Origin: Flavobacterium sp. BFFFF1
GTDB lineage: Bacteria > Bacteroidota > Bacteroidia > Flavobacteriales > Flavobacteriaceae
Length of the DNA stretch: 64,000 nucleotides
Direction of reading: 5' to 3'
Assembly: GCF_002256285.1 (NCBI RefSeq)
Contig: NZ_NKJE01000011.1
Span: 56,710 to 120,709, forward strand
The position numbers and the translations under genes were made by a program. Of this stretch, positions 17,326 through 41,800 are shown in pieces (within the stretch, counting starts at the first letter, position 1; each line of letters starts with the position of its first letter). Under the pieces are notes generated by a model. The model saw only the letters and a list, made by a program, of their open reading frames with translations. It ran no database searches and had not been told where the DNA came from.

Positions 17326-18942
17326 TTATGACTGTTTTCTTCCCTTTAACAGGTTGATGCTTACTGTTGCAAAATCAGTATCCGGAAAGCGGCGAAAAAT
17401 TTCCGGATCCGGATACAGGCCCGCCTCAGAAGCGATCTTGTTGAACACGTCAATTTCTACAATGTACTGGTCTGAAAAACCATGTGTGGCGTCATAAGCG
17501 GTAGCGGCTGTCCTTCCTAAATTCGCTGCGGTGAGTTTTGGATCAATGGTGTGCAACTCGATCAATAACAAACCGAATTTACTAACATAGGGCGACCATT
17601 TCTGCAAATGTTCGTACAAATTGTCTTCTACAAGTGCGTTGCTGATTCGCCTTCCGCGGTGTGCAAAGGCACCTGTCGAACTGCTGATGCGGCCCTCGCT
17701 GATATGTTTCGGGTCTTCCCAAATGCGGTTATGATCAAGAAACGTACGCACGTTCAGCAAATCCTTTAAGTCAATAGCATAGTTTTCCATCAGGTCCTCC
17801 GCAAGGATATCAGGACGGCCAATATCACCCCAGATCACTTTTGCCCAGATGTCAGCTTTGATAAGGTTGGCACGCGTTACTTTCAGGGCGGCCTGGTTGT
17901 AATCGACACCCACCAGGAACAGCGGATGGTCATCAAGCATTTTACCACGCAGTGTCTGCCTGTCTATCACCTCAAAAATGTGCTGTAAAAACGCGCCATT
18001 TCCGCAACCCATATCCAGTATTCCCTTTGGCTGCTGCTCAATGGGCAGGTTAAAAAGGCGGATCAGGATTTCGTCCACCACCTTAAAATAGGTGTCATGG
18101 GCACCGCCGCTTCCCCAGACATTCATCTCGCGGTCCACGTGGATTTCTTCACTGCCGTCCGGCTGCATCCTCAAGATGGACGGATTGCCAAACATCAGTG
18201 ATTCGATTTTGGCAAACGTCGGCAGGTAGGATACCGTCACGCCATAAGCAGAAGCCCTTTTCGCAAAGAACAATCCGGAGTCGGTAAATTGATAGTTTCC
18301 TTTCTTCTCCATAAACCATCCGAGATGCACAAAAAAATCGAGTATTTTCCTGAATTCGTCAGGGGAACGGTGGTATTCTTCGGGGCGAAAAGATATCTCC
18401 ATGAAATATTTATGAAACATCCCATTCATGCCCAAACGCACCAGTGTGGGGCCAACAAGATAGCCCTCGATATGTTTCAATACCTGCCGCTGAATCTCAT
18501 TTTTAAGGGAATCGTCGGACATTTCCAGGCCATAGCCAGACTTAAACTTTTCAAATATCAAATCAAGCTTCCTGAAAGGCTCCTCCTCAAAAATCCTTGG
18601 ATGGAAATCTGATGAAAAATGAAGCAATTCCACCACATCTTCGTAGAGATAAAACAGTCCAAATGCGGTTTCGCTCTTTTCGTTGGTCCGGAAAGAAATA
18701 ACATCTGAAGCATTATCGACATCATAGTCAATAAATCCCTGCGAAGCCAGGACACGAAGACCTACATTGAGGTAACCCTCGTTGGCTTTAAACAGAGAAA
18801 CCAGGTCAGAAAGAGTAGCTGTTTTGTGTTCAAGCAGGTAGTCAGTGATGCCTTTTTTCTGCAGTGCTACTGCAACGGGCGCGGTAGCAAGTCCGTCGAG
18901 GTGCTTGAAAATCGAGCTGCGGAGTTCGTTCTTTTCTATCAT
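17326..18942 (-). CDS. Stand-alone class I SAM methyltransferase, AprA-MT1-like
   Basis: ILDMGCGNG SAM motif; HVDREMNVWGSGGAHDTYF, RTFLDHNR and IELH motifs; large N-terminal lid region. Start moved to MIEKN. Confidence 0.75.
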   Translation of the reverse strand: MIEKNELRSSIFKHLDGLATAPVAVALQKKGITDYLLEHKTATLSDLVSLFKANEGYLNVGLRVLASQGFIDYDVDNASDVISFRTNEKSETAFGLFYLYEDVVELLHFSSDFHPRIFEEEPFRKLDLIFEKFKSGYGLEMSDDSLKNEIQRQVLKHIEGYLVGPTLVRLGMNGMFHKYFMEISFRPEEYHRSPDEFRKILDFFVHLGWFMEKKGNYQFTDSGLFFAKRASAYGVTVSYLPTFAKIESLMFGNPSILRMQPDGSEEIHVDREMNVWGSGGAHDTYFKVVDEILIRLFNLPIEQQPKGILDMGCGNGAFLQHIFEVIDRQTLRGKMLDDHPLFLVGVDYNQAALKVTRANLIKADIWAKVIWGDIGRPDILAEDLMENYAIDLKDLLNVRTFLDHNRIWEDPKHISEGRISSSTGAFAHRGRRISNALVEDNLYEHLQKWSPYVSKFGLLLIELHTIDPKLTAANLGRTAATAYDATHGFSDQYIVEIDVFNKIASEAGLYPDPEIFRRFPDTDFATVSINLLKGRKQS

Positions 18943-18985
18943 AACATATTGGCTGGATATCCCAAATATAAGAAAAAACAATTTG

Positions 18986-20151: not shown

Positions 20152-20502
20152 ATGGACCACAATAAAGACCTTGGAAACAAAAAAATCAACAACGAACAGG
20201 AAGTCAATGAAGGATTCAGTGGGGAGAATATTCCAAAAGATTACAACCCATCAAAATCCAAATTACAACCTGAAACTGAAACTGACGACAAAGGCAACGA
20301 GCACAATGTCCAACGCGCAAGGAATACCGACACAACGACCGAAAACGAAAGCAACGGCGACGGTAAGGAAACCAAATCGTATGACGGCGACATGAGGTCG
20401 CAGGTTGAAAACAAAGACCGCAATTCAGACATTGCAACCAACCGCTATCCTAATTCGCACCCGGAAAACCACATCAACCGCGGAAATATGGATAACGAAT
20501 GA
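20152..20502 (+). CDS. Hydrophilic low-complexity hypothetical protein
   Basis: 116 aa rich in D/E/N/K/T with almost no hydrophobic core; occupies an otherwise empty gap. Confidence 0.65.
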   Translation: MDHNKDLGNKKINNEQEVNEGFSGENIPKDYNPSKSKLQPETETDDKGNEHNVQRARNTDTTTENESNGDGKETKSYDGDMRSQVENKDRNSDIATNRYPNSHPENHINRGNMDNE

Positions 20503-23381: not shown

Positions 23382-24527
23382 ATGAGACAGAATTACAAAC
23401 TTTTACCTTATTTATTGTTGCTCACCGCAGTTTTAATCACAACGTTTATCGCCTGTTCGAAAAATGATGACGACGATGAATACGTGGAACCCACTCCGGT
23501 TTCGCCGGTTACCGTGGACTTGACACAGGTACCCTATGCCACACTATCAGAATATAAATTTTTTGATGGTCCGTTGAAAAACCTGAAACCATCGTTGGAC
23601 GTGCTTCCCTATGCACCGGCAAGTTCGTTGTTTTCGGATTACGCCCACAAAAAACGTTTTGTCTGGATGCCAAAAAACACCAAAGCCACTTTCAACAGCG
23701 ATGGAACAATTTTGGAACTTCCTGTAGGCGCGGCGCTAATTAAGAACTTCTATTATGACAACGTGCAAAACATTGCGACACCCGGCGGGACAAGGATTAT
23801 TGAAACCCGGATTATGATTCGCAAATCAACCGGCTGGATTTTTGCTGATTACAAGTGGAATGCCGAGCAAACGGAAGCTACGCTTGATCTTGATGGAAGT
23901 TTTACAGATATAACATGGAAAGATGAAAACAATGTGGTTAAAACCGCCAATTACAGAATTCCGAACGAATCGCAGTGCATCATCTGTCATAAATCGCGAG
24001 ACATCAATGATGTAGTTACGTTTATACCGATTGGGATTAAGCCACAAAACCTGAATTTCGACTACAACTATGGAACTGAAACCAAGAACCAGTTGACAAA
24101 ATGGATTGAAGCAGGTTATCTGGATAGCAATTTTACATTTCCGACCGCGGAAAACACTACGATCGATTACAATGACACCTCAAAACCTTTGGAATTGCGT
24201 GCCCGCAGCTATGTAGACATTAACTGCGCGCACTGTCACGGTGTGGATCGCCATTGCGATTACAGGCCTATGCGATTTGCTTTTTCCGAAACAAAGAACA
24301 ATCTGGTGAATATGGGGGTTTGCGTCAACACCCAAGACATGCAGGGATTTTCACCCTCTTTGGGTAAAATCATTACCGGAGGAAGACCTGAAGAGTCGAT
24401 GTTGTATTACAGGATCAACACTACAGACGAAACTTACAGAATGCCGCTTCATGGAAGAACGGTAATCCACGAAGAAGGTGTTGCCTTGATGCGTGACTGG
24501 ATTAACACACTGGACCGCTGTAATTAA
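23382..24527 (+). CDS. Diheme c-type cytochrome lipoprotein (SO2930-like)
   Basis: Lipobox FIAC then SKNDDDDE; LFSDYAHKKRFVW, IETRIM; two CxxCH motifs (CIICH, CAHCH); RMPLHGR. Confidence 0.8.
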   Translation: MRQNYKLLPYLLLLTAVLITTFIACSKNDDDDEYVEPTPVSPVTVDLTQVPYATLSEYKFFDGPLKNLKPSLDVLPYAPASSLFSDYAHKKRFVWMPKNTKATFNSDGTILELPVGAALIKNFYYDNVQNIATPGGTRIIETRIMIRKSTGWIFADYKWNAEQTEATLDLDGSFTDITWKDENNVVKTANYRIPNESQCIICHKSRDINDVVTFIPIGIKPQNLNFDYNYGTETKNQLTKWIEAGYLDSNFTFPTAENTTIDYNDTSKPLELRARSYVDINCAHCHGVDRHCDYRPMRFAFSETKNNLVNMGVCVNTQDMQGFSPSLGKIITGGRPEESMLYYRINTTDETYRMPLHGRTVIHEEGVALMRDWINTLDRCN

Positions 24528-24554
24528 TTTAAGAACCAACCTAAACTAAAAATA

Positions 24555-27035
24555 ATGAAGTTAAAAAATTACAAAACAACAAAGATATCGCTGGTCTGTA
24601 GTCTTAAGCTATTGATATTGACAACTTTTGCCGGCATACAGTTTGGCTATTCACAAAACAGTTGCGCGACCGCAATTCCAATCACCCAGGGAAACTATAC
24701 TGTGGATGCGATAAACGGGTCAAACATCTCCACGACGTGTTCTACCGCGGCGCTTGGAGAATGGTACAGTTATACCCCTCTTGTAAACCATAGTGTAACT
24801 GTTAGTTCGGATCTGCCTGAAAACAGCTGTAAAGACACTAATTTCAGCGTTTATACCGGAACGTGCAATGGTTTGACCTGTTACGCTGAGGATGATGACG
24901 GGGGTAATATTATTTGCACAAATAACAACCAGTCCTATCTGTCAACTAAGACTTTTGACGCGATGGCTGGCGTAACTTACTATATTGTTTGGGATAACAA
25001 GTGGAGCACTACCGGTTTTGCATTTAAGCTTACCGAAGCTGCTTTCGTTCCGAGTCCCTGTTCTACGGCGACTGCAGTTACTGCGGGAATAACTTCAGTG
25101 GCTGCGATAGATGGAGCAAACATCAATACGAATTGCTCTTCAACATCGCAAGCAAAATGGTACGCTTACAGCCCGTCTCAGGATTACCACGTAACGGTGT
25201 CATCGGACTTGGCTGTAAACCTTTGCAAAAACACCAATTTTAGTGTATACACGGGATCTTGTTCTGGAGGCCTTACTTGTGTATCCGGCGATGACGATTC
25301 AGGGATTTTAGTTTGTGACTCCGGAAACAACCTTTCTAACTTGTCCAAGAAATCCTTCAATGTTACGGCGGGTACCATATATTATATTGTTTGGGATGAC
25401 AAGTATTCCGCGGACGGTTTCGATTTTGAACTTATTGAAGCACCTATCGTTTATCCAGTAACCTATACCGCTCAGAACATCGGCACCATTAATAGCGGCT
25501 TTAACAATTGCGTAGTCGATATGAACGGTGATTCATTGGATGATATCGTCGGCGTAAGCAACAATGCACTCAAAATTCATTATCAAAATACCAACGGCAC
25601 GTTTACAGTCGGAAACTTCACGGTTCCGGGAACGGGATTCCAACCTGATTGGAGTATTGCCGCCGGCGATTACAATAAAGATGGATTCAATGACCTGCTA
25701 CTTGGAAGCAGTAACGGCCTTACATTTTGGAGATCAAATGCTACGGGTACCGCATACACCAGCGTTACTCCGGGCCAGTACATTTTCTGCCAGAGAACAA
25801 ATTTTGTTGACATTAACAATGACGGAAATCTCGATGCATTCTCCTGCCACGATATCAATCCAAATGTCTATTATATTAACAATGGAACGGGAGGGATGAC
25901 ATACTACCAATCTGGCGTCACCTCGGGGGCCTATTCTTTAGGAATTACTCCAGGAGGCGGAAATTATGCTTCTCTTTGGACAGATTACGACAACGACGGT
26001 GATGTCGATATGTTTATATCTAAATGCTCAGGACCTCCGTGCGAGTTACACCGCAACGATGGGAATGGTGTTTTTACCGATGTTTCTGCGCTGGCCGGAA
26101 TCAATGTAACCCCAATCCAGTCATGGTCTTCTGCAATTGCTGACTTTGATAACGATGGTGACATGGATATCATCATTGGCTCGAACGGAGCGGTTGGGCA
26201 CAAATTTTTCAGGAATGACCTTGACACCTCTAACAGCACAGAAGAAGCTTTCACCAATATTACTTTAGGCTCAGGTTGGGATACAGATGGTACCAATAAC
26301 AGGGATTACATTGCGTATGATTTCGACAACAATGGATTCGTCGACGTATTAGGTAGTGGAGGCAAAATAATGTTTAACCAGGGAGATAATACTTTTGCTC
26401 CAAGCGAATACCCTGCAATTAGCGTTGGTGGCGTGGGAGACCTCAATAACGACGGCTTTTTGGATATCCAGATTGGAAATACAATTCAATATGCAGTACC
26501 AAATGGGAATCACTGGATTAAAGTGGCGCTTAAAGGCGTTCAAAGTAATAGTAATGGTATAGCTGCGAGGGTTGAAATATATGGTGCATGGGGTAAACAA
26601 ATGCGTGACATCAGAAGTGGTGAGGGATTTGAATTCATGAGTTCATTAAATGCTCACTTTGGTATCGGTAGCGCAACTGCAATCGATAAAGTTGTGATTA
26701 CCTGGCCAAGTGGAACAATTGACGTCATCAACAATCCTGCGATTGACAGCATGCTTAAAATAACTGAAGCGTCTTTCCCTCTTGCAATTACTGAGGCCGA
26801 AAATGAATCATTTATAATTTACCCAAACCCAGCAGGCGACACGATTAACATCAAAACCAAATCAAATGCCGGGATAATTAAAGCGGAAATATATGACCTG
26901 ACCGGTAAACTGATTCTCAAAAAAGAATCGGTGAACAGCAGTATACCGGTAAACAGCCTTTCAAATGGAACCTATATGTTGAAAGTGTTGGATGTAAATG
27001 GCCATCAATACACTCAAAAATTTGTAAAATCATAA
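24555..27035 (+). CDS. T9SS-secreted FG-GAP/ASPIC-UnbV protein with two N-terminal six-Cys repeats
   Basis: Signal peptide, two repeats of about 130 aa, seven Dx(D/N)xDG-type motifs, NHWIKV...AHFGIG ASPIC-like domain, IYPNP...QKFVKS C-terminal domain. Confidence 0.85.
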   Translation: MKLKNYKTTKISLVCSLKLLILTTFAGIQFGYSQNSCATAIPITQGNYTVDAINGSNISTTCSTAALGEWYSYTPLVNHSVTVSSDLPENSCKDTNFSVYTGTCNGLTCYAEDDDGGNIICTNNNQSYLSTKTFDAMAGVTYYIVWDNKWSTTGFAFKLTEAAFVPSPCSTATAVTAGITSVAAIDGANINTNCSSTSQAKWYAYSPSQDYHVTVSSDLAVNLCKNTNFSVYTGSCSGGLTCVSGDDDSGILVCDSGNNLSNLSKKSFNVTAGTIYYIVWDDKYSADGFDFELIEAPIVYPVTYTAQNIGTINSGFNNCVVDMNGDSLDDIVGVSNNALKIHYQNTNGTFTVGNFTVPGTGFQPDWSIAAGDYNKDGFNDLLLGSSNGLTFWRSNATGTAYTSVTPGQYIFCQRTNFVDINNDGNLDAFSCHDINPNVYYINNGTGGMTYYQSGVTSGAYSLGITPGGGNYASLWTDYDNDGDVDMFISKCSGPPCELHRNDGNGVFTDVSALAGINVTPIQSWSSAIADFDNDGDMDIIIGSNGAVGHKFFRNDLDTSNSTEEAFTNITLGSGWDTDGTNNRDYIAYDFDNNGFVDVLGSGGKIMFNQGDNTFAPSEYPAISVGGVGDLNNDGFLDIQIGNTIQYAVPNGNHWIKVALKGVQSNSNGIAARVEIYGAWGKQMRDIRSGEGFEFMSSLNAHFGIGSATAIDKVVITWPSGTIDVINNPAIDSMLKITEASFPLAITEAENESFIIYPNPAGDTINIKTKSNAGIIKAEIYDLTGKLILKKESVNSSIPVNSLSNGTYMLKVLDVNGHQYTQKFVKS

Positions 27036-27041
27036 TTTGAT

Positions 27042-27077
27042 AAAAGCGGCTTGGAAATATACAAGCCGCTTTTTTTT
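27042..27077 (+). terminator. Intrinsic terminator between the tandem paralogs
   Basis: AAAAGCGGCTTG-GAAATATA-CAAGCCGCTTTTTTTT. Confidence 0.85.
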
Positions 27078-27113
27078 CGAACATATTTAATCAACCATCA
27101 AAACTATAGTAAT

Positions 27114-30002
27114 ATGAATTTAGAAAACTACGCTAAATCGAAATTATCCTTCGTGGGTAATTTCGGACTCTTGCTTTTACTAATGGCCTGCTTTGGATTT
27201 CATTCCTCCTATGGACAAAATTCCTGTGCGGCGCCACTGACAGTTACTGCAGGCACTTACACCGTTGCACAGATTGACGGGACTAATATTAGTACGACCT
27301 GTTCAACCGCATCATTCGCGGAATGGTTTGCCTATACGCCCACCGCAAACTATAGCGTCACAGTGACATCAGATCTAATCCAGAACATATGTGGTGACAC
27401 TAACTTTACAGTATATACCGGGAGCTGCGGTGCCTTAAGCTGTTACGCCAAAGATGATGACTCGGGTACCATTGCCTGCAACGTTGCCCCAAATACAAAC
27501 CAGACCTATCTTTCAAAAAAGACTTTTGATGCATTGGCAGGCGTAACGTACTATATTGCGTGGGACAGCAAATGGAATACAAATGGTTTTGACTTTCAAA
27601 TAATTGAGGCACCATTTGTCCCAAGCCCATGTTATAACGCTACTTCAATTTCAGCCGGAACAGTGACCATAAATGCCATCGACGGAACAAATGTCAATAC
27701 TACCTGTTCGACCGCGCCGTTGGCAAAATGGTATGCTTATACGCCTACACAGGATTATTTTGTTACAATTACCTCGGATCTGCCTCAAAATATTTGCAAA
27801 AATACCTTTTTCAGCGTGTATACCGGATCTTGTTCGGGAGGCCTTACGTGCGTTACAAGCGACGACAACTCCGGCGTTATTGCGTGTGATTCTGGAAATA
27901 CCTTTTCTTACCTATCACAAAAGTCGTTTAATGTAGTTGGAGGAACCACTTACTACATTGCCTGGGATAGTAGAGGTGGAACTGATGGTTTTGACTTTCA
28001 GCTTTCTGAGGCACCTACGCCGTGTGCCAGCGCAATCGCTATCACTGCCGGAACAATTACCGTAGACGTGGTAAATGGCACAAATGCGAGCACAACCTGC
28101 TCTACCGCCACACAGGGAAAATGGTATGTGTATACGCCATCACAGGACTATCATGTCACCATTACATCAGATCTGCCACAAAATATTTGCAAGGACACAA
28201 ACTTTAATGTTTACACTGGATCATGTACCGGAACACTGACATGCTTTGCCAGCGATGACAACTCAGGGAATATCGCTTGTGATTCAGGAAATAGTTTTTC
28301 AAATCTCTCAAAAAAGACGTTTGACGTCGTGGGTGGAACAACGTACTACATCGCATGGGATAATAAATGGAGCTCAGATGGATTTGATTTCGAGTTAACT
28401 GAAAATCAAATAATTGTTCCGGTAAACTACACCTCACAAACAATTGCCACCATTCCAAATACCGGATATAATATCTGTGTTGCAGATATGAATGGTGATT
28501 TACTCGACGATATTGTCAGCGTAAACACCAACGCCCTGAAAATTCACTACCAGAACACCAATGGAATTTTTACCGTAGGGAGTTTCACAGTACCAGGAAA
28601 CAGCAACATGCCCGGCTGGAGTATGGCCGCCGGTGACCTAAATAAAGATGGATACAATGATTTGCTATTGGGCAGCAGTAACGGACTTACTTTCTGGAAA
28701 TCAAATGAAACCGGAACAGCCTACACCAGCGAAACACCTGGAGAGTACATTTTTTGTCAAAGGACCAATTTTGTTGACATCAATAATGATGGAAATCTGG
28801 ATGCTTTTTCATGTCATGATATTGACCCGAATGTCTATTACCTTAACAACGGAGATGGCACAATGACCTACTACCAGTCTGGTACCACACCTGGAGCTTA
28901 TTCTCTTGGCGTGACACCGAGCGGTGGAAATTATGCTTCACTCTGGACAGATTATGATAATGACGGTGACGTCGATATGTTTATCTCTAAATGCTCTGGT
29001 CCTCCATGTGAGTTGCATAGAAATGATGGAAATGGTGTTTTCACAGACATTTCTGCGCTGGCAGGAATTAATGTTACACCAATCACGACCTGGTCCTCTG
29101 CCATTGCCGACTTTGACAATGACGGCGACATGGACATCATGATTGGTAAAAATGGATCAGTCGGTGGTAAATTTTTCCGAAATGATCTTGATACGTCAAA
29201 TAATGTAGAAGAACCGTTTGTTAATGTTACCGCGGGATCAGGCTGGGAATCAGACACCAGCAACAACCAGGACTATGTCGCCTACGATTTTGACAACGAC
29301 GGATGGGTCGATATCTTTGGCGCGGGGGGAAAAATAATGTTCAACCAAGGCGATATGACATTCCTCCCCACCGTCTATACCAATCTAAATCCCGGACCCA
29401 TAGGAGATTTGAACAATGACGGTTTTCTTGATTTTCAAAGTGGCGCTACCATTCGGTATGCTGTGCCAAATGGAAACCATTGGCTGAAAGTAGGGCTTAA
29501 AGGAACCACAAGCAACAAAAACGGAATTGCAGCAAGGGTTGAAATATACGGTGCATGGGGCAAACAAATTCGGGACATCCGAAGTGGCGACGGCTTCAGG
29601 TACATGAACTCAATAAATGCACATTTCGGGATCGGCAGTGCCACAACAATTGATAAAATTGTCATCAACTGGCCAAGCGGTACCATTGACGTCATTAATA
29701 ATCCCTCTATTGACAGCATGGTTACTGTAAACGAAGGTGCCTTCCCACTGACGATAACAGAGGCAGAAAATGATGCATTCGTCATATTTCCAAATCCTGT
29801 AAGTGATATCCTTAATATCAAATCAAGATCAAATGCGGCAATCATTAAAGCCGAAATTTTTGATATGGCCGGAAAAATGATCCTGAAAAAAGAATCAGTT
29901 AACAGTACCATTCCTGTAAACACTTTGTCAAACGGAACATACATCATCAAAATTCTCGATGTAAACGGTAGGCAATACACTCAAAAATTTGTAAAATCAT
30001 AA
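27114..30002 (+). CDS. T9SS-secreted FG-GAP/ASPIC-UnbV paralog with three six-Cys repeats
   Basis: Same architecture as 24555-27035 plus one extra repeat, and the same QYTQKFVKS end. Start moved to MNLEN. Confidence 0.85.
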   Translation: MNLENYAKSKLSFVGNFGLLLLLMACFGFHSSYGQNSCAAPLTVTAGTYTVAQIDGTNISTTCSTASFAEWFAYTPTANYSVTVTSDLIQNICGDTNFTVYTGSCGALSCYAKDDDSGTIACNVAPNTNQTYLSKKTFDALAGVTYYIAWDSKWNTNGFDFQIIEAPFVPSPCYNATSISAGTVTINAIDGTNVNTTCSTAPLAKWYAYTPTQDYFVTITSDLPQNICKNTFFSVYTGSCSGGLTCVTSDDNSGVIACDSGNTFSYLSQKSFNVVGGTTYYIAWDSRGGTDGFDFQLSEAPTPCASAIAITAGTITVDVVNGTNASTTCSTATQGKWYVYTPSQDYHVTITSDLPQNICKDTNFNVYTGSCTGTLTCFASDDNSGNIACDSGNSFSNLSKKTFDVVGGTTYYIAWDNKWSSDGFDFELTENQIIVPVNYTSQTIATIPNTGYNICVADMNGDLLDDIVSVNTNALKIHYQNTNGIFTVGSFTVPGNSNMPGWSMAAGDLNKDGYNDLLLGSSNGLTFWKSNETGTAYTSETPGEYIFCQRTNFVDINNDGNLDAFSCHDIDPNVYYLNNGDGTMTYYQSGTTPGAYSLGVTPSGGNYASLWTDYDNDGDVDMFISKCSGPPCELHRNDGNGVFTDISALAGINVTPITTWSSAIADFDNDGDMDIMIGKNGSVGGKFFRNDLDTSNNVEEPFVNVTAGSGWESDTSNNQDYVAYDFDNDGWVDIFGAGGKIMFNQGDMTFLPTVYTNLNPGPIGDLNNDGFLDFQSGATIRYAVPNGNHWLKVGLKGTTSNKNGIAARVEIYGAWGKQIRDIRSGDGFRYMNSINAHFGIGSATTIDKIVINWPSGTIDVINNPSIDSMVTVNEGAFPLTITEAENDAFVIFPNPVSDILNIKSRSNAAIIKAEIFDMAGKMILKKESVNSTIPVNTLSNGTYIIKILDVNGRQYTQKFVKS

Positions 30003-30024
30003 ATTTTCACCATAAACGGGAAAT

Positions 30025-30060
30025 AAAAAAACCGCTCCTTATCCGGAGCGGTTTTTTTTT
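30025..30060. terminator. Bidirectional intrinsic terminator
   Basis: A-tract CCGCTCC-TTATCC-GGAGCGG T-tract. Confidence 0.85.
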
Positions 30061-30076
30061 GTAGTCGTCTAGAAAG

Positions 30077-30916
30077 TTAAAATACCCGCGCCAGGTTAAA
30101 TCCAAAGAAAATATCCCCTTTCCCCCAGTCCCCGGTCGTTTGTCCAAGGAATCCCGCTTCGTGTATCTGCTGTGAACTGGTGAAGTGCATTTGGAAAACA
30201 TGCCCGCCAGTTTCAAGATCCACACCCACTGACAAAGGATTTTTATAAATGGAATTGGAAGCCCTATTTAGATGAGCAGCATAGTCTACATTCACCGACC
30301 ATCTTTTTCCAAGCTTGTACCTTCCTCCCATTCCGATGGCGTACTGTGTATTATTCTGGTCGTCGTTGTCCACAAAATTTTCATGGAAAACAGTTGGCGC
30401 CAATTCCAGTGACAGTTTGTCGTTGAATTTTCTTGAAATCAGCAATTGTTGTACATAAATCAATCGATTATCAAACTTTAACTTCGGATAATTGCTTTCT
30501 TTTAGGGTATTGTTGATTGCGAGACTGCTAAAACCGGCAATAGCAAATGGAAAGCCGTCTTTAATCTGGCTTTGCAAACCATACTTTAATGAAAAATCAT
30601 AAGCCATCTCACTTCTGGCACCACTTATGGTAAGCCATTCGGTAAGCCCGTATAAAAACTTTAGCTGGGTCATCGCGTTGTCCAATCCATAAAATCCCTC
30701 AAAATCGTCCTTAATGGAGCCAAACCGGTGCGCAACAATAAAATACAAATCGCCTTTTGCAGCCAGTTTTGTGGATTCAATATTGACGATTTTAAGTCCC
30801 TTAAATGCTGACTGTACCGTTTCCTTTGTGGCCACAGAATCCACTCCGGACAACAAATCATCCTGCGCAAACGTGAGGACGGGCAAAAATAAAAATGCTA
30901 GTAGTAATTTTTTCAT
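30077..30916 (-). CDS. DUF5777-like outer-membrane beta-barrel protein
   Basis: Signal peptide, FIVAHRFG, VDLETGGHVFQMHF, amphipathic strands, C-terminal FGFNLARVF. Confidence 0.75.
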   Translation of the reverse strand: MKKLLLAFLFLPVLTFAQDDLLSGVDSVATKETVQSAFKGLKIVNIESTKLAAKGDLYFIVAHRFGSIKDDFEGFYGLDNAMTQLKFLYGLTEWLTISGARSEMAYDFSLKYGLQSQIKDGFPFAIAGFSSLAINNTLKESNYPKLKFDNRLIYVQQLLISRKFNDKLSLELAPTVFHENFVDNDDQNNTQYAIGMGGRYKLGKRWSVNVDYAAHLNRASNSIYKNPLSVGVDLETGGHVFQMHFTSSQQIHEAGFLGQTTGDWGKGDIFFGFNLARVF

Positions 30917-30952
30917 AGAAATTTGATGTTAGATAGTTGATGTAAAATAATG

Positions 30953-31345
30953 CTATTGGGAAATCGCGGCCTGATCCAGCTTGAACTCTTCTAAAAGATC
31001 GTCATAACCGAGGAAGCGTCCTTTAATTTTAATTTGCTTTCCAACTTCTAAACTGTTGGTTTGTGTCGAATCCATTAAAGTGGCCGATAATTTCTCATCG
31101 ACAATTAAAGTGTGGTCTGATAAATCCCCTTCAGTGATATTACCGTATACTTCTATAGTCTTATCCAGATATTTCTTATTGGAGGATTCGGGGTTCTTCG
31201 AGAATTCTTGCTGCAATTCCGCAACCGAGACTGAAAACCCAGCCGCCTCTGAAGCGATGTCCCGATGGCCATGATACATGTAACGATAGCCTCCATAGGC
31301 GATAACACCTAAAATTAAAAGTCCAATGAGTAATTTCTTTTTCAT
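30953..31345 (-). CDS. Membrane-anchored OB-fold protein (tRNA_anti-like)
   Basis: N-terminal TM, KYLDKTIEVYGNI, IKIKGRFLGYDDLLE. Confidence 0.7.
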   Translation of the reverse strand: MKKKLLIGLLILGVIAYGGYRYMYHGHRDIASEAAGFSVSVAELQQEFSKNPESSNKKYLDKTIEVYGNITEGDLSDHTLIVDEKLSATLMDSTQTNSLEVGKQIKIKGRFLGYDDLLEEFKLDQAAISQ

Positions 31346-31428
31346 AAATATTTTTTTCTTACAAACTTAATTATTTTTTTATATCTCACTTTCGATTAAC
31401 TTTATTATTTACTTTTGAACAAAAAACT

Positions 31429-31803
31429 ATGCACATGACCATCAAAACACTATTTAAATTAACATTTGCCACGGTACTTCTTACCTCGTGCAATAATGAC
31501 AGCCCGGATGACCTGATTGACAACATACCGCTGCCGGAAACCGTAACGTACGAAGCTAATGTAAAATCCATCATTACCAATAACTGCCTCAGTTGTCATA
31601 CCGCGCCACCTGTTAATGGAGCCCCTATGCAGTTAACTACTTACGAGGATGTGAAAAATGCGGTTTTAAACAGAGGCCTTTTAAATCGTATCGCCAGGCA
31701 AAACGGGGAAGATGGACTGATGCCAAATGGCGGACCCAGAATGCCCCAGCAAAATATCGATATCATCAACCAATGGGCAACCGATGGATTACCTGAACAA
31801 TAA
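31429..31803 (+). CDS. Monoheme c-type cytochrome lipoprotein
   Basis: Lipobox LTSC then NNDSPDD; CLSCH; MPNGGPRMP; W...GLPE end. Confidence 0.82.
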   Translation: MHMTIKTLFKLTFATVLLTSCNNDSPDDLIDNIPLPETVTYEANVKSIITNNCLSCHTAPPVNGAPMQLTTYEDVKNAVLNRGLLNRIARQNGEDGLMPNGGPRMPQQNIDIINQWATDGLPEQ

Positions 31804-31815
31804 AAACCAATTACG

Positions 31816-32355
31816 ATGAAAAAAATGATCACCTTTTTACTGTTGTTCTCCGCCGCTTTTTCTTCAGCACAGGACAAAATGATTACCAAAAACGGTAAGA
31901 TTACTTTCGAAGCTTCTGTTCCTGCATTTGAAGAAGTCAAAGCCAAAAACGAAGGCGTGACCTGCGTACTTAATCCAAAAACAGGCGAGATTGCGAGCCT
32001 GGCGTTAATGAAAGGATTTCGTTTTAAAGTAGCCTTAATGGAAGAACATTTTAATGAAAACTACGTCGAGAGTGACAAATACCCGAAATCTACTTTCAAA
32101 GGAAAAATCGAAAATTTTGACGCATCAAAACTGACATCGACAGCAAAAGATTACACCATCAAAGGCAAACTGGAACTCCATGGAAAAACCAAGGACATTA
32201 CCATTCCTGCTAAAATCCGAAAAACAGATGCGGGAATTGAGATCGTTTCTAATTTTACCGTCAACGCAGACGATTACGCCATTGCGATTCCTTCGGTAGT
32301 AAAAAGTAAAGTGTCGAATAAAGTCAGTGTAAAATGTGAATTCACAGTGAAGTAA
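31816..32355 (+). CDS. YceI-family protein
   Basis: Signal peptide, FRFKVALMEEHFNENYVES, GKLELHGKTK. Confidence 0.88.
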   Translation: MKKMITFLLLFSAAFSSAQDKMITKNGKITFEASVPAFEEVKAKNEGVTCVLNPKTGEIASLALMKGFRFKVALMEEHFNENYVESDKYPKSTFKGKIENFDASKLTSTAKDYTIKGKLELHGKTKDITIPAKIRKTDAGIEIVSNFTVNADDYAIAIPSVVKSKVSNKVSVKCEFTVK

Positions 32356-32373
32356 TACTACTTTCAAACAATA

Positions 32374-32400
32374 AAAAGCGCTCTGTTGAGCGCTTTTCTT
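32374..32400. terminator. Intrinsic terminator
   Basis: AAAAGCGCTC-TGTT-GAGCGCTTTT between convergent genes. Confidence 0.8.
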
Positions 32401-32406
32401 TTGATA

Positions 32407-33366
32407 TTAAATTTCAACTTTTTGAAAACTATTTAGCCTATCAAGATGGAGGATGGTTTTGGTATTCGCCTCATTCTCGGTGTACATCATGTCAAACTTT
32501 GCGCCATATACAATTTCGTTAAAAGTATAGGATGTCCGGGCGACAACGTCGGTGCTGAACATGTCGTCAAAAGTCTTGATGTACACGAGCAATTCGCCTT
32601 CTGTAGCATCGAAATCTTCTTTCCTGAAACCGAACAAAGGGCTCTCTTCCGTAATCGGATGCACTAAGGTCCAACTCAGTGTCAACGCATTGATTTTGTC
32701 CAACTCTAATTTTAGCGAGTAAAACTTGTTCGTCGGCGTACCATTCTCCTCCACGCTCATTCCAAGGGTAATTTTGGCCACGGCTTCAGAGAAATTCGTA
32801 TTTTTAAACGGCGTCAACCGCAACATCAATGCTTTTCCGCCGCGATAAGGGGCAATTAACGCATGATGGGAAAACCTAAGGTGTGCAATCGGCTTGCTGA
32901 ACCGCCCAAAGAACAAGCCGGTAGCAATCGCAAAACTCAACAACCCGACCAACGCCTCTGCTGCGGCCAGCGAACTGGTGAGAAATCCATTGGGGCTGAT
33001 ATGGCCATAACCCACAGTCGTAAAGGTCTGCGCACTAAAAAAATAAGCCTTTCCAAATTTTACAAGCTCACTCCCTGTCGTTTCAATTCCGTCAAGGTAT
33101 TCTACACCAATCAGGTAATAAATACAGGCGAAAACAAAATTTACCAGAATATAGAACGAAAACAGGATGGCCATAAACTTCCATCGGGGCATACTGATCA
33201 TCGTATGGTACCAACTAATCCTGTTAAAAAACGGCATGCCGCGCTTGCTGATGTTTGAAGTACCATCCTTATTGATAAACCGACCTCCGTAACTGCCCGG
33301 ATTCGTCCCAAAACCGGTGTTGGCATCCGCGGTGGCTTTTGCATTTATTTTCCTGAGCAATGACAT
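32407..33366 (-). CDS. KirBac-type inward-rectifier potassium channel
   Basis: FFSAQTFTTVGYG filter, two TM helices, RFSKP, LSWTLVHPI cytoplasmic domain. Start moved to MSLLR. Confidence 0.9.
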   Translation of the reverse strand: MSLLRKINAKATADANTGFGTNPGSYGGRFINKDGTSNISKRGMPFFNRISWYHTMISMPRWKFMAILFSFYILVNFVFACIYYLIGVEYLDGIETTGSELVKFGKAYFFSAQTFTTVGYGHISPNGFLTSSLAAAEALVGLLSFAIATGLFFGRFSKPIAHLRFSHHALIAPYRGGKALMLRLTPFKNTNFSEAVAKITLGMSVEENGTPTNKFYSLKLELDKINALTLSWTLVHPITEESPLFGFRKEDFDATEGELLVYIKTFDDMFSTDVVARTSYTFNEIVYGAKFDMMYTENEANTKTILHLDRLNSFQKVEI

Positions 33367-33498
33367 AATTTGCGTTTCGGTAAAACTAAAAAAAATCGCC
33401 GACTTCTTCATAGGGATTTTTCAACTCCAAAACCAATTTGGCTCGTCCCTATATCAGAAAACCACATTTTTTTTTAAATTTGACCAAAACCTCACATC

Positions 33499-38825: not shown

Positions 38826-41800
38826 ATGCTAAATAATTACCAAAAAAACATTAAAGCGATAATACTCTCTTTTTGTCTGATGCTGGCTGTGTCCCTGCAT
38901 GCGCAATTCACCACCGTCGGAAGCGGAGGATACACCAATACATTCCCCGGAACAGACTCGGCCGGCAGAAATGCCTTCCCATCCGGTTCTCCGCAAATTA
39001 CGGGTAACGCCATCGGGAAGCCTGTTCCCACAAACGACTGGTGGTCGGCACTACTGAAAGAGAACCACGCGGCGAATCTTTTTAATTACCCGTTGGCGAT
39101 GCGCACAGTAAATGAAGGCCTTGTCGTAAGCTACATTGTACCAACATCAACACCGAATGGCGCCAGCCAGCCGTTTGATGATGCATTACCGATTACAATA
39201 GGCGTCACCGGATTAAGTTCTTCCATTACAAAAGTAGCGGACTATTCAGATTGGACCGTCACCATGAATTGGGCTGGCGGCACACACAAGTTCGAGGCCA
39301 CTGCAGCAATTGGGATGCCATTTATTTATTTTACCAAAAACACAACAGATGTTGCCCAATTAACCATTACAGAAGGCACCGTCACGATAAACAACGAAAT
39401 GCTCGTGATCACGAATTCACATCAGGGCGCTGACTTTGCAGTGTATGCACCAGTCGGAAGTGTTTGGACGCAGGCTGGAAATGTGTACACCTCAACACTA
39501 AACAACAAAAACTATTGGTCGATGGCTTACATTCCGCCAAGTGCGAGTGACATCACTACCGTAGCAAACCAATATAAAAAATATGCTTACGTTTTCCCAA
39601 CAAACACCACCTCATCCTGGAATTACGATCAGGCTACGGCAAAAATGACCACTACTTTCAACGTTACGACTGACGTCAAAGAAGGTATTGAAACGAATGT
39701 GCTGCTGGGATTGCTCCCACACCAATGGGCCCATCTTGCATCAGCATCAGCACAGCCAGGTGGTTACAGTTACAGTTCCATCAGGGGGGAAATAAAAACC
39801 CTTGATGGCAATACGTTTACTGTCGAAAATACATTTAAAGGTATTTTGCCGACACTCCCTTATCTTGATAATTACAGCCCTGGGTTCAATCCAGCGAAGC
39901 TGGACACCAAAATTTCCCAGATTGAAAACGACGGCCTTGCCACCTGGACGGATTCCTATAACGAAGGACAAGTGATGAACCGCCTGATACAAACAGCCAG
40001 GGTTGCCGACGAAATGGGCGATACCGAAGCACGGAATAAAATCGTAGCAACAATCAAAGAAAGGCTCGAAGATTGGCTCAAACCCCAATCGGGTGAGGTG
40101 GCGTTCCTGTTTTATTACAACAGCACCTGGTCGACAATAATCGGATACCCAGCCGGCCACGGACAGGATTCGAATATCAATGACCACCATTTCCATTGGG
40201 GCTATTTCATCCATGCTGCGGCGTTTATGGAACAATTTGAGCCTGGCTGGGCAGCGCAATGGGGCCCGATGATTAATATGTTGGTTCGGGACGCCGCGTC
40301 AAGCGACAGGAACGATTCGATGTTTCCTTATTTGAGGAACTTCAGCCCATATGCCGGCCACAGTTGGGCGAACGGTTTTGCCACTTTTCCTTTCGGAAAC
40401 GACCAGGAGTCCACTTCTGAAAGCATGCAGTTCGCTTCCTCGCTGATTCATTGGGGCACGATTACAGAAAATACAGCCATCAGGGACTTGGGAATTTATA
40501 TTTATACCACAGAACAGACCGCCATCGAAGAATATTGGTTTGATGTAAACCACCGGACTTTTAAACCTGGTTACGGATACAGCCTTGCTTCGAGGGTCTG
40601 GGGAAATGGCTACGACAACCAGACATTCTGGACGGGAGACATCGCAGCAGCATACGGGATAGAAATGTACCCGATTCACGGTGGGTCGCTGTATTTGGGA
40701 CAAAACCAAACCTATGTCCAATCGCTTTGGAATGAAATTTCAGCAAACACCGGAATTCTAAGCAACGAAGCCAACGCAAACCTCTGGCATGATGTGTACT
40801 GGGAATATCTTTCCTTCATCAATCCGCAGGCAGCAATCAATTTGTACGACTCTTATCCTGATAGGGAACTGAAATTTGGCATATCGGATGCACAAACCTA
40901 CCACTGGTTGCACTCGATGAATGCTTTAGGCACCGTAAATGTGAATATCACAGCCAACTACCCCATAGCGGCAACATTTACAACGAATGGCGTTACAAAT
41001 TATGTCGCACATAATTATGGAGATTCTGCTATCGACGTTAGCTTTTCAGATGGCTATATATTACATGTTCCTGCCAATTCTATGGCAACCAGCAGGGATA
41101 CTGATGTGAACGGCGTTTTGTCTTCCGATTTCTATCAGGCGTACCCGAATGGAAGCGTCCACCTTACTGCGGTAACCACGGGATCCGGAGTAACAAAAGT
41201 GGCTTTCTTCGATGGTGCAAATTTAATCGGTGAAGACACTACCGCACCATACGAAATGCAGGCTGCAAACCTGACGTTGGGCATGCACGGCATGTACGCT
41301 AAAGTCTATTCGGGCGATTCATTTAATGTTACCAACATCATCCAGGTTCAGGTTGGAGAACAGGTTCCGTTTTTAGGCGCACCGTTCCCGATTCCGGGAA
41401 CCATCCAGCCAGGAAATTATGATGCATTTGAAGGTGGTATCGGGCAAAACATTTCGTACAATGATTCTTCGCAGAATAATGAAGGGGGTTATCGCGCCAC
41501 TGAATATGTCGACGCTACGGTAGACACGAACGAAGGCAACACAGTGGGCTGGATCACTGCCGGGGAATGGATGGAATATTCCATAAATGTACAGACTTCC
41601 GGCTTGTATAACGCCACGCTTCGTTATGCATCAGGAAACTCAAATGGCGGCGGACCGTTTCATTTTGAAGTCGATGGAGTAGCTGTTACCGCCGATGTCA
41701 GCCTGCCTGCAACCGGAAACTGGAACAGTTGGGCAAATAAACTAATCAATAATATACCGCTGACACAAGGCGAACACATTTTAAGATTCTCTGCCGTCAA

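What the first reader, a model, noticed from the sequence alone, without database searches (positions are those of the whole stretch)
23382..32355. Candidate undescribed cell-surface redox system: lipoprotein cytochromes, OM barrel, YceI, OB-fold and T9SS beta-propellers
Seen in 9 kb: a diheme lipoprotein (CIICH, CAHCH), a monoheme lipoprotein (CLSCH with a distal MP), a signal-peptide barrel ending in Phe, YceI, an anchored OB-fold protein and two secreted FG-GAP/ASPIC proteins. Both cytochromes have acidic residues right after the lipidated Cys (C-SKNDDDDE, C-NNDSPDD). Known: such acidic motifs act as surface-export signals in Bacteroidota, and YceI proteins bind isoprenoid quinones or lipids. 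Inference: heme centres displayed outside the cell, linked through a porin and a quinone/heme carrier, serving extracellular electron transfer, metal handling or redox activation of the Cys-rich secreted proteins. I know of no characterised system with this make-up. The genes lie in three or more transcription units, so the linkage is unproven.
Basis: partly seen in the sequence, partly recalled or inferred. Interest (0 to 1): 0.7.

Follow-up and report, generated by a model that had tools for sequence, protein, structure and literature searches.

The report
Two adjacent cytochrome envelope gene modules
This 9-kb stretch of a Flavobacterium genome is two neighbouring, separately conserved and uncharacterised gene sets rather than one machine; each pairs a lipid-anchored haem protein with outer-membrane or secreted partners, and one set may be a new way of handling electrons at the cell envelope.

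Summary
They do not form one system.

**Module A (23382-30002, + strand)** is a diheme lipoprotein related to the SO2930/TIGR03806 family, followed by two T9SS-exported FG-GAP/ASPIC (CRTAC1-like) propeller proteins.
- In 61 of 69 related metagenome loci, a propeller gene follows the cytochrome gene on the same strand (median gap 23 bp).
- 52 of 53 complete propeller partners carry a T9SS tail.
- Only 2 of 35 such loci with enough downstream sequence have the barrel nearby.

**Module B (30077-32355)** is a membrane-anchored OB-fold protein, a DUF5777 12-strand outer-membrane barrel, a small monoheme lipoprotein cytochrome c and YceI.
- All four genes stay together in 69 of 80 Flavobacteriaceae loci, in three different gene orders.
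- In 26 of 80 loci the module also holds a T9SS-exported cupredoxin, DOMON or CxxCH domain protein.

A strong bidirectional terminator separates the two modules.

My reading is that B is an envelope redox relay built on a YceI-cytochrome pair, and that A is a separate surface cytochrome/propeller pair. Both are uncharacterised, and the mechanisms are inferred.

The parts
23382..24527 (+). Module A, gene 1: diheme c-type cytochrome lipoprotein. It has an N-terminal beta-rich domain, then CIICH (199-203) and CAHCH (282-286), with an LES-like C-SKNDDDDE after the lipobox.
   Evidence: TIGR03806, 272 bits, cut-off 313; invariant C199 C202 H203 C282 C285 H286 M354 P355; lipobox Cys in 94/97; AF2 pLDDT 78; no solved relative.
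24555..27035 (+). Module A, gene 2: T9SS-exported FG-GAP/ASPIC (CRTAC1-like) beta-propeller protein with two N-terminal ~130-aa Cys-rich repeats.
   Evidence: human CRTAC1 9etn, E 2.3e-11; repeats; conserved partner of gene 1.
27111..30002 (+). Module A, gene 3: tandem paralogue of gene 2 with three Cys-rich repeats. The ORF opens at TTG 27051; ATG 27111 is the likelier start.
30025..30060 (.). Bidirectional intrinsic terminator between the convergent units A and B.
   Evidence: 14-bp stem, dG -20.5 kcal/mol, z -5.0, flanked by an A-run and a T-run.
30077..30916 (-). Module B: DUF5777 12-stranded outer-membrane beta-barrel, with signal peptide ..TFA|QDD, a conserved N-terminal segment and a C-terminal Phe.
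   Evidence: pLDDT 90.6; KdgM-family porin, OmpG, FapF, COG4313 channel; E 1e-6 to 4e-5.
30953..31345 (-). Module B: OB-fold protein with an N-terminal membrane anchor (tRNA_anti-like family), 36 bp upstream of the barrel gene.
   Evidence: conserved HRDI after the anchor, and IKGR.IGYDDLLEE.
31346..31428 (.). Divergent promoter region between the OB-barrel and cytochrome-YceI units. TAnnTTTG-type -7 elements are visible by eye on both strands.
   Evidence: sequence read by eye; the Bacteroidota promoter consensus is from my own knowledge. The sigma-70 scan was uninformative.
31429..31803 (+). Module B: small monoheme class-I-type cytochrome c lipoprotein (CLSCH, distal M-P), with mature N-terminus C-NNDSPDDL.
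31816..32355 (+). Module B: YceI-family lipocalin with signal peptide ..SSA|QDK, 12 bp after the cytochrome gene.
32374..32397 (.). Bidirectional terminator closing the cytochrome-YceI unit.

Best explanation
The region holds two independent, conserved envelope modules that happen to lie side by side in part of the genus Flavobacterium.

**Module B (OB-fold anchor, DUF5777 barrel, lipoprotein cytochrome c, YceI)** is a core Flavobacteriaceae unit. I read it as an envelope redox relay that works as follows.
- The periplasmic YceI lipocalin carries an isoprenoid quinone (menaquinone in flavobacteria).
- The inner-membrane-anchored OB-fold protein is its dock or loader.
- The monoheme lipoprotein cytochrome sits on the small 12-strand barrel at the outer membrane and exchanges single electrons with the lipocalin-bound quinone.
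- The barrel gives that chemistry access to the outer membrane or the surface.
- The sink is either lipid radicals in the outer membrane or, where encoded, T9SS-displayed cupredoxin, DOMON or haem proteins.

**Module A** is a two-part surface pair. An LES-bearing diheme cytochrome lipoprotein acts as redox partner (electron donor, electron acceptor or oxidative maturase) of the T9SS-exported CRTAC1-like propeller proteins encoded directly downstream.

**Shown:** gene content, domain identities, export signals, barrel fold, operon structure, and conservation and independence of the two modules.

**Inferred:** quinone loading of YceI, electron flow and its direction, cytochrome-barrel contact, surface exposure, and any A-B link.

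**Rough odds:** two separate modules 0.9; B as a YceI-cytochrome redox relay 0.45; A as a surface redox pair 0.4.
For: **Independence of the modules**
- Of 80 DUF5777-anchored loci from more than 30 named genera, 69 keep OB, barrel, cytochrome c and YceI within 3 kb, in three different gene orders. Only 10 of the 80, all Flavobacterium, have the diheme gene within 10 kb.
- Of loci anchored on the diheme gene (45-67% identity), 61 of 69 have an FG-GAP/ASPIC gene directly downstream (median gap 23 bp). Only 2 of 35 have the barrel.
- 52 of 53 complete propeller partners carry a T9SS tail.
- F. silvaticum has A without B next to it. Three loci have the barrel abutting 4HBT-RmuC with no module A.
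- A strong terminator lies between the two units.

**Redox reading of B**
- 26 of 80 loci carry, inside or beside the module, a T9SS-exported domain protein: plastocyanin/amicyanin-type cupredoxin with an intact H..C-x2-H-x4-M site (12 loci), DOMON (13) or choice-of-anchor-V/Reeler-like CxxCH (1).
- The same CxxCH domain is fused to the barrel in a distant relative.
- Distant DUF5777 genes (32-39% identity) still have a small lipoprotein cytochrome c directly upstream, and one also has YceI.
- YceI-cytochrome pairing has experimental precedents: BcnA/LcoA (PMC9113575) and Cbp2D (PMC8981238).

**Surface reading of A**
- The mature N-terminus of the diheme family fits the Bacteroidota export signal: +2 S/K, +3 K/D/S, +4 to +6 D/E (signal defined in PMC5080379).
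Against: - There is no expression, localisation or biochemical data. No RNA run holds this sequence.
- 54 of 80 loci, including this window, have no T9SS redox partner in cis, so an outward electron sink is not obligatory.
- A 12-strand barrel cannot enclose a cytochrome, so how electrons or quinone would cross is unexplained.
- The small cytochrome's acidic motif is shifted relative to the tested export-signal positions, so it may face the periplasm.
- In the barrel-fused relative, the N-terminal haem domain would normally be periplasmic.
- A paralogous OB-YceI-barrel triad in marine genera lacks a cytochrome. The core function may therefore be ligand transport rather than redox chemistry.
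- FG-GAP/ASPIC propellers have no known redox chemistry.
- The diheme protein has no detectable relative of known structure or function.
Confidence: 0.6

Rival explanations
1. One reading: all seven genes form one cell-surface redox system in which the barrel and YceI link the two cytochromes and serve the Cys-rich secreted propellers.
For: - The genes are adjacent in this window, in F. pallidum and in F. enshiense, and in 10 of about 29 Flavobacterium loci.
- Both halves have a lipoprotein cytochrome with acidic post-Cys residues.
- Both halves are associated with T9SS cargo in one lineage or another.
- A surface diheme protein needs an electron source, and B could be that source.
Against: - The halves separate freely: 2 of 35 and 10 of 80.
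- Other genes intervene between them in some Flavobacterium loci (L017-L019).
- The units are convergent, with a strong terminator between them.
- B is family-wide, while adjacency to A is seen only within Flavobacterium.
- The TIGR03806 family also occurs in Proteobacteria (the family name comes from Shewanella SO2930).
Confidence: 0.1
2. Module B is a lipid or isoprenoid handling pathway rather than an electron outlet. It would either be a BcnA/LcoA-like quencher of outer-membrane lipid peroxyl radicals, or a shuttle moving menaquinone, carotenoid or another hydrophobic ligand between the membranes (anchor to YceI to barrel). The cytochrome would only re-reduce or re-oxidise the carrier.
For: - YceI proteins bind isoprenoid quinones, and BcnA with its linked cytochrome protects against lipid peroxidation (PMC9113575).
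- The module is near-universal and highly conserved in the family. The barrel is 77-90% identical within the genus, as expected of housekeeping envelope upkeep.
- The closest barrel folds include channels for hydrophobic substrates (COG4313, FadL, TodX).
- A cytochrome-free OB-YceI-barrel triad exists.
- Two thirds of loci have no surface redox partner.
Against: - It does not explain why three unrelated T9SS-exported electron-carrier domains are recruited to the same position.
- It does not explain why a haem domain is fused to the barrel.
- The cytochrome here is a c-type lipoprotein, not a membrane b561.
Confidence: 0.3
3. The DUF5777 barrel is a dedicated partner or translocon of the small cytochrome lipoprotein. 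It would be either a SusC/SusD-like or BtuB/BtuG-like barrel-lid pair, or a Slam-like or autotransporter-like device that displays the cytochrome (or the fused haem domain) on the surface. YceI and the OB protein would be accessories.
For: - Cytochrome-barrel adjacency is the most deeply conserved link, extending to 32-39% identical barrels.
- The invariant mature N-terminus of the cytochrome (..D-D-L at +7 to +9) looks like a specific recognition motif.
- The barrel has 12 strands with a confidently modelled extended N-terminal segment, and its fold matches include autotransporter barrels.
- N- and C-terminal passenger-like fusions exist.
Against: - Fold matches to autotransporters are no better than matches to ordinary porins.
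- YceI is as tightly linked as the cytochrome, and the YceI-barrel pair persists without a cytochrome.
- No coordinates were available to see whether the N-terminal segment threads the pore.
Confidence: 0.2
4. The module A diheme protein is a MauG-like maturase. It would oxidatively modify, cross-link or build a cofactor in the propeller proteins encoded downstream, rather than exchanging electrons with them during function.
For: - The operon order, cytochrome then one to three propeller paralogues, is invariant.
- Only one invariant Met is available for two haems, so one haem may be five-coordinate and catalytic.
- The N-terminal beta domain feeding straight into CIICH is weakly reminiscent of cytochrome P460/c'-beta (E 0.3, not significant).
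- The substrates are Cys-rich.
Against: - There is no sequence or fold similarity to MauG or cytochrome c peroxidase.
- An LES-type signal predicts the surface as its place of work, where an oxidant and an electron supply are unclear.
Confidence: 0.15

Closest known systems
BcnA/LcoA lipocalin-cytochrome system of Burkholderia cenocepacia (also yceI-yceJ of E. coli), PMC9113575
   Same: A YceI-family lipocalin gene is genetically linked to a cytochrome gene across many genomes. The proposed chemistry is that the cytochrome re-reduces lipocalin-bound quinone, which then acts in the periplasm or outer membrane.
   Different: - The cytochrome here is a small c-type lipoprotein, not an inner-membrane b561.
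- The module has a dedicated 12-strand outer-membrane barrel and an anchored OB-fold protein.
- One third of relatives add a T9SS-exported cupredoxin, DOMON or haem protein.
- No phenotype data exist.
Cbp2D/Cbp2E secreted redox proteins of Cellvibrio japonicus and relatives (PMC8981238, PMC10916295)
   Same: [quoted passage not shown]
   Different: - Those are single multidomain secreted proteins with carbohydrate-binding modules, tied to cellulose or chitin use.
- Here the parts are separate genes with no CBM, a lipoprotein anchor and an outer-membrane barrel.
- No sequence similarity of the cytochrome to X183 structures was detected.
Porin-cytochrome conduits (MtrCAB type; own knowledge)
   Same: The idea of a barrel plus a lipoprotein cytochrome passing electrons across the outer membrane.
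   Different: - Mtr uses a barrel of about 26 strands sheathing a decahaem protein, plus a decahaem surface lipoprotein.
- Here the barrel has 12 strands and the cytochrome has one haem.
- A direct haem wire through the barrel is not possible.
SO2930 family diheme c-type cytochromes (TIGR03806)
   Same: Full-length alignment to the family model (positions 3-314 of 314) and two CxxCH motifs at equivalent places.
   Different: - The score is below the curated cut-off (272 against 313).
- This protein is a lipoprotein with a Bacteroidota export-type signal.
- Its partner gene is an FG-GAP/ASPIC T9SS propeller. From memory of the TIGRFAM description, not checked here, the usual neighbour in Proteobacteria is a parallel beta-helix protein.
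- The family itself has no known function.
CRTAC1 / ASPIC-UnbV FG-GAP proteins
   Same: FG-GAP repeats plus the UnbV_ASPIC domain. The closest solved structure is human CRTAC1 (9etn, E 2.3e-11).
   Different: These are bacterial T9SS cargo with two or three extra Cys-rich N-terminal repeats, and they are obligately paired with a diheme cytochrome gene.

Membership tests
SO2930 family diheme c-type cytochrome (TIGR03806) | Whole-protein score at or above the curated cut-off of the family model | tested here: not met
   272.2 bits against a cut-off of 313.3, although the alignment spans model positions 3-314 of 314. It is a relative or sister subfamily, not a certified member.
SO2930 family diheme c-type cytochrome (TIGR03806) | Two CxxCH haem-binding motifs | tested here: met
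   CIICH at 199-203 and CAHCH at 282-286, invariant in 97 homologues.
SO2930 family diheme c-type cytochrome (TIGR03806) | Adjacent parallel beta-helix partner gene (TIGR03805; recalled from memory of the TIGRFAM description) | tested here: not met
   The downstream genes are FG-GAP/ASPIC propellers. Neither has a TIGR03805 hit.
DUF5777 (PF19089) | Match above Pfam's gathering score over the whole domain | tested here: met
   288 bits against 23.1, model positions 1-247 of 247.
DUF5777 (PF19089) | Outer-membrane beta-barrel fold with a signal peptide and a C-terminal aromatic residue | tested here: met
   AF2 pLDDT 90.6 with 12 strands. There are 153 PDB matches at E<=0.001, led by outer-membrane barrels. 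The protein ends ..ARVF.
YceI-like lipocalin (PF04264) | Domain match above the gathering score | tested here: met
   56.5 bits against 23.7, with weak matches to the BcnB, PA0423 and E. coli YceI structures.
YceI-like lipocalin (PF04264) | Bound isoprenoid or quinone ligand | not testable with these tools
   This needs purification and lipid mass spectrometry.
BcnA/LcoA-type lipocalin-cytochrome system | YceI gene linked to a cytochrome b561 membrane protein gene | tested here: not met
   The linked cytochrome is a c-type lipoprotein in 69 of 80 loci. No b561 gene lies in the module.
Porin-cytochrome (Mtr-type) conduit | Large barrel enclosing a multihaem cytochrome, plus a multihaem surface lipoprotein | tested here: not met
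   The barrel has 12 strands. The cytochromes have one and two haems.
Bacteroidota surface-exposed lipoprotein (LES-dependent) | Lipobox Cys followed by a polar/Lys residue and then two or more D/E at about +3 to +6 (PMC5080379) | tested here: met
   Diheme protein: C-S-K-N-D-D-D-D-E. In the family, +4 is D/E in 63 of 94, +5 in 63 of 94 and +6 in 44 of 94 (signal defined).
Bacteroidota surface-exposed lipoprotein (LES-dependent) | The same signal in the small cytochrome | tested here: inconclusive
   C-N-N-D-S-P-D-D-L, with family consensus C-[ST]-N-D-S-E-D-D-L. Acidic residues occur mainly at +4 and +6 to +8, shifted from the tested optimum.
Bacteroidota surface-exposed lipoprotein (LES-dependent) | Demonstrated exposure on intact cells | not testable with these tools
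   This needs protease shaving or antibody labelling.
T9SS type A cargo | Sec signal peptide plus a C-terminal sorting domain above the cut-off | tested here: met
   TIGR04183 at 48.4 and 46.8 bits against a cut-off of 23, and PF18962 at 49.3 and 48 bits against 27. The tail is present in 52 of 53 partner proteins.
CRTAC1/ASPIC family | FG-GAP repeats followed by the UnbV_ASPIC domain | tested here: met

The most novel reading that the evidence does not exclude
Module B is a previously unrecognised, minimal outer-membrane electron outlet of Flavobacteriaceae and wider Bacteroidota. A quinone-carrying YceI lipocalin, a monoheme lipoprotein cytochrome and a 12-strand DUF5777 barrel would pass reducing equivalents from the menaquinone pool to proteins displayed by the type IX secretion system: cupredoxin, DOMON or CxxCH domains. 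In some Flavobacterium species the neighbouring surface diheme cytochrome/CRTAC1-like pair would be another recipient.
Probability: 0.2. Interest if true: 0.85.

Novelty: new variant of a known kind. Interest (0 to 1): 0.55.

Why it matters
Bacteroidota are major degraders in soil, water and the gut, yet nothing is known about how, or whether, they move electrons across or within their outer membrane.

Module B is almost universal in Flavobacteriaceae. It is strongly conserved and has never been studied.
- If it is a redox relay, it would add a third, structurally different case to the recurring YceI-plus-cytochrome theme.
- It would give the DUF5777, PF12869 and choice-of-anchor-V families a first functional context.
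- It would link type IX secretion to redox biology.

Module A offers the first functional handle on bacterial CRTAC1-like proteins and on the SO2930-type diheme cytochromes.

Both modules can be tested directly in the genetically tractable Flavobacterium johnsoniae.

Tried and rejected
- **Solved structures.** Sequence and profile searches of the PDB for the diheme protein and the OB protein found nothing. Foldseek on the diheme model gave no match better than E 0.02. The weak resemblance to cytochrome P460 (E 0.3) is not evidence.
- **Literature.** Searches for DUF5777, TIGR03806, SO2930 and bacterial ASPIC/UnbV proteins gave nothing relevant.
- **Expression.** The only runs holding the sequence are metagenomic DNA. 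The single RNA run from the same sample holds none of it, so co-transcription could not be tested.
- **Promoter and terminator scans.** The sigma-70 promoter scan found no more sites than shuffled sequence (29 against 27.2). The terminator scan missed the 30025-60 hairpin, which I then folded separately.
- **Regulatory motifs.** A search of the divergent intergenic regions was abandoned. They are 4-270 bp, AT-rich, and their starts are uncertain.
- **Alignment choice.** A narrower alignment (A3) worked.
- **Cys-rich repeats.** Pfam at E<=10 gave no family for the N-terminal repeats.
- **Relation between the cytochromes.** I considered whether the small cytochrome is a duplicate of the C-terminal half of the diheme protein. 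Similarity is only around the haem motif (E 0.003 pairwise), so I rejected it.
- **Mtr-type conduit.** Rejected on barrel size.
- **Unused resource.** The third large protein search was not run, because its answer would not have changed the verdict.

Full report
**Observation**

- Gene 1 (23382-24527, +) is a 381-aa lipoprotein with CIICH and CAHCH. It aligns end to end with the NCBIfam model TIGR03806, 'SO2930 family diheme c-type cytochrome'. It scores 272 bits against a curated cut-off of 313.
- Genes 2 and 3 (24555-27035 and 27111-30002, +) are tandem paralogues with FG-GAP repeats, the UnbV_ASPIC domain and a type A T9SS sorting tail. They carry two and three copies of an unclassified ~130-aa six-cysteine N-terminal domain. 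Their closest solved relative is human CRTAC1.
- Gene 4 (30077-30916, -) is a DUF5777 protein. AlphaFold2 models it with pLDDT 90.6 as a 12-strand barrel. Its best PDB neighbours are small outer-membrane channels: a KdgM-family porin, OmpG, FapF and the COG4313 channel.
- Gene 5 (30953-31345, -) is an OB-fold protein of family PF12869 with an N-terminal anchor.
- Gene 6 (31429-31803, +) is a 124-aa lipoprotein with one CxxCH and a conserved distal Met-Pro.
- Gene 7 (31816-32355, +) is a YceI lipocalin.

The closest relatives of genes 1 and 4 are from Flavobacterium. Gene 1 is 82% identical to its F. pallidum homologue.

**Transcription units**

Genes 1-3 are separated by 27 and 15-75 bp. Genes 5-4 are separated by 36 bp and genes 6-7 by 12 bp.

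Between the convergent genes 3 and 4 lies a 14-bp GC-rich hairpin flanked by an A-run and a T-run (30025-30060; dG -20.5 kcal/mol; z -5.0; no shuffle of 200 folds as well). Another bidirectional terminator follows gene 7.

The left unit is insulated from the other two.

**The region is two modules, not one**

I anchored a scan of one genome per species on the barrel and searched the 80 returned loci with the window's proteins. The loci cover about 29 Flavobacterium genomes and about 30 other named Flavobacteriaceae genera.
- OB, barrel, small cytochrome and YceI lie within 3 kb of each other in 69 of 80 loci.
- Three of the eleven exceptions are cut by contig ends.
- The four genes occur in three arrangements:
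  - divergent (YceI and cytochrome on one strand, OB and barrel on the other), 36 loci;
  - OB-barrel-cytochrome-YceI, 17 loci;
  - cytochrome-YceI-OB-barrel, 16 loci.
- Linkage that survives rearrangement is the classic signature of functional coupling.
- The diheme gene lies within 10 kb of the barrel in only 10 of the 80 loci, all Flavobacterium. In some of these, 2-4 kb of other genes intervene.
- In three loci the barrel directly abuts the 4HBT-RmuC genes that flank module A in the window.

The reverse test anchored on the diheme protein in metagenomes (80 loci, 45-67% identity).
- 61 of the 69 loci with room have an FG-GAP/ASPIC gene immediately downstream on the same strand (median gap 23 bp).
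- Only 2 of 35 loci with at least 7 kb of downstream sequence contain the barrel.
- F. silvaticum carries the diheme gene plus two propeller genes at a different place in its genome.

**Module B in more detail**

The barrel is more conserved than its neighbours. It is 77-90% identical within the genus, against 65-82% for the diheme protein. The family has 1,552 representatives at 50% clustering.

Far-flung members (32-39% identity) still have a small lipoprotein cytochrome c directly upstream, and one also has YceI downstream. The cytochrome-barrel pair is therefore the oldest link.

The small cytochrome is a lipoprotein in 78 of 80 homologues. Its mature N-terminus is strikingly conserved, C-[ST]-N-D-S-E-D-D-L.

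The most telling finding is the set of extra genes found at the same spot in relatives. In 26 of 80 loci a small T9SS-exported protein lies inside or beside the module:
- 12 are plastocyanin/amicyanin-type cupredoxins with an intact type-1 copper site.
- 13 are DOMON domains, always accompanied by a signal-peptide ankyrin protein.
- One is a Reeler-like 'choice-of-anchor V' domain with a CxxCH motif.

That last domain is fused to the N-terminus of the barrel itself in a distant relative.

Three unrelated electron-carrier-type domains, each with an export tail, recruited to one genomic position argue that the module's business is redox chemistry at or beyond the outer membrane.

Some marine genera add a paralogous OB-YceI-barrel triad without a cytochrome. 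It sits next to a lipoprotein with cupredoxin-like C-terminal units.

**Module A in more detail**

Across 97 homologues, the invariant residues include the two CxxCH motifs and one Met-Pro (M354-P355), together with a set of residues in the N-terminal beta-rich domain that leads straight into the first haem motif.
- The fold model is moderate (pLDDT 78).
- No solved structure matches significantly.
- 94 of 97 homologues have the lipobox cysteine.
- The positions after it (+2 S/K; +3 K/D/S; +4 to +6 mostly D/E) fit the lipoprotein export signals defined experimentally for Capnocytophaga, Bacteroides and F. johnsoniae: C-X-K-(D/E)2-X, SDDDD and SDDFE (PMC5080379).
- 52 of 53 complete downstream partners carry a T9SS tail, and 41 of 53 carry the Cys-rich repeat.

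A predicted surface lipoprotein is thus invariably encoded with predicted surface or secreted cargo.

**How it most likely works**

*Shown:* gene content, signals, folds, operon structure, conservation and independence. Everything that follows is inference.

For module B, I commit to a redox relay based on the YceI-cytochrome pair.
- YceI proteins are periplasmic lipocalins that carry isoprenoid quinones.
- In Burkholderia, the YceI protein BcnA and its linked cytochrome b561, LcoA, protect the envelope from lipid peroxyl radicals. The proposed mechanism is that the cytochrome re-reduces lipocalin-bound quinone (PMC9113575).
- In Cellvibrio, the secreted protein Cbp2D combines a YceI-like domain with c-type cytochrome domains, and one of those domains can reduce a lytic polysaccharide monooxygenase (PMC8981238; PMC10916295).
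- Here I propose that the anchored OB-fold protein loads or docks YceI at the inner membrane.
- YceI then ferries menaquinol to the outer membrane.
- There the lipoprotein cytochrome, sitting on the DUF5777 barrel, takes or gives single electrons.
- The sink is either radicals in the outer membrane or the T9SS-displayed copper or haem proteins, where these are encoded.
- I put about 0.45 on this general relay, split roughly evenly between the protective and the outward-supply versions.

The rivals for module B are a pure lipid or ligand transport pathway, and a barrel that acts as a dedicated lid-partner or translocon of the cytochrome.

For module A, I propose that the diheme lipoprotein is the surface redox partner of the propeller proteins (about 0.4). 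A MauG-like maturase role is the main rival. Its electron source is unknown.

**Weak points**
- There are no expression or localisation data.
- Two thirds of module B loci, including this window, have no exported redox partner in cis.
- A 12-strand barrel cannot house a cytochrome, so the physical route across the membrane is unexplained.
- The acidic motif of the small cytochrome is shifted from the tested export-signal positions.
- The haem domain fused to the barrel's N-terminus would ordinarily be periplasmic.
- FG-GAP/ASPIC propellers have no known redox chemistry.

**Comparison with known systems, and novelty**
- Module B resembles the BcnA/LcoA and Cbp2D themes (lipocalin plus cytochrome) but is a member of neither. 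The cytochrome is a c-type lipoprotein, there is a dedicated barrel and an OB anchor, and T9SS partners appear.
- It is not an Mtr-type porin-cytochrome conduit, on barrel size and haem number.
- Gene 1 is related to, but scores below the threshold of, the SO2930 family. It has a different partner gene.
- No paper in the searchable library mentions DUF5777 or TIGR03806.

I rate the finding a new variant of a known kind. It is interesting mainly because module B is near-universal in an ecologically important family and can be tested directly in F. johnsoniae.

**What led nowhere**

The PDB, Foldseek, literature and RNA-run searches that returned nothing, the uninformative promoter scan and the abandoned motif search are listed under 'tried and rejected'.

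Noticed in passing
window 24650-25450 and 27210-28420: Genes 2 and 3 carry two and three copies of a ~130-aa six-cysteine N-terminal domain. It has no Pfam match even at E<=10. The same repeat is present in 41 of 53 partner proteins elsewhere.
   Followed up: partly
window 32407-33411 (-): A KirBac-like inward-rectifier K+ channel gene (IRK, IRK_C) sits next to YceI. The same neighbour recurs in about ten Flavobacterium loci.
   Followed up: partly
L166:672-1031 and L076:9175-9492: Some small cytochromes next to DUF5777 barrels have C-x4-CH (CAVSGCH, CATSGCH) in place of CxxCH. This may be a variant haem-attachment motif.
   Followed up: no
L028, L042, L047, L055, L056, L060, L070, L083 (e.g. 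L047:4587-8085): Marine genera have a second, paralogous OB-YceI-barrel triad without a cytochrome. Between the two triads, four of these loci (L047, L055, L070, L083) carry a Lipoprotein_15/SCO0930-like lipoprotein ending in two cupredoxin-like 'YNCEFHxSMxG' units, and two others (L028, L042) carry a lamin-tail-domain repeat lipoprotein.
   Followed up: partly
L006:8586-9874 and 12 other loci: The DOMON-T9SS gene always travels with a signal-peptide ankyrin-repeat gene. From memory, this recalls periplasmic AnkB, which supports catalase KatB in Pseudomonas. The ankyrin protein could be a haem-loading helper.
   Followed up: no
P0243, P0302, P0341, P0365: DUF5777 occurs in unusual architectures:
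- two barrels in tandem in one protein;
- a barrel followed by a Lys-rich linker and a 200-aa C-terminal domain;
- a Reeler-like CxxCH domain before the barrel;
- a long Ala/Lys/Glu-rich N-terminal extension.
   Followed up: partly
window 17326-18981 (-): A stand-alone 551-aa protein with AprA N-terminal, winged-helix and MT2-like methyltransferase domains, outside any polyketide cluster.
   Followed up: no
window 38826-43613 (+): A 1595-aa T9SS cargo protein with GH81 (beta-1,3-glucanase), CBM6/35, PKD, Big_7 and fn3 domains.
   Followed up: no
window 20152-20502 (+): A 116-aa ORF that is highly charged and rich in Asn, Glu, Asp and Lys, with no family match. It may be an intrinsically disordered protein, or not a gene at all.
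   Followed up: no
L005 and L015 (10905-17457); L098, L107, L123: Module A is duplicated in different ways. Some Flavobacterium have whole cytochrome-propeller pairs in tandem. Others have two diheme genes in tandem before one propeller gene.
   Followed up: no
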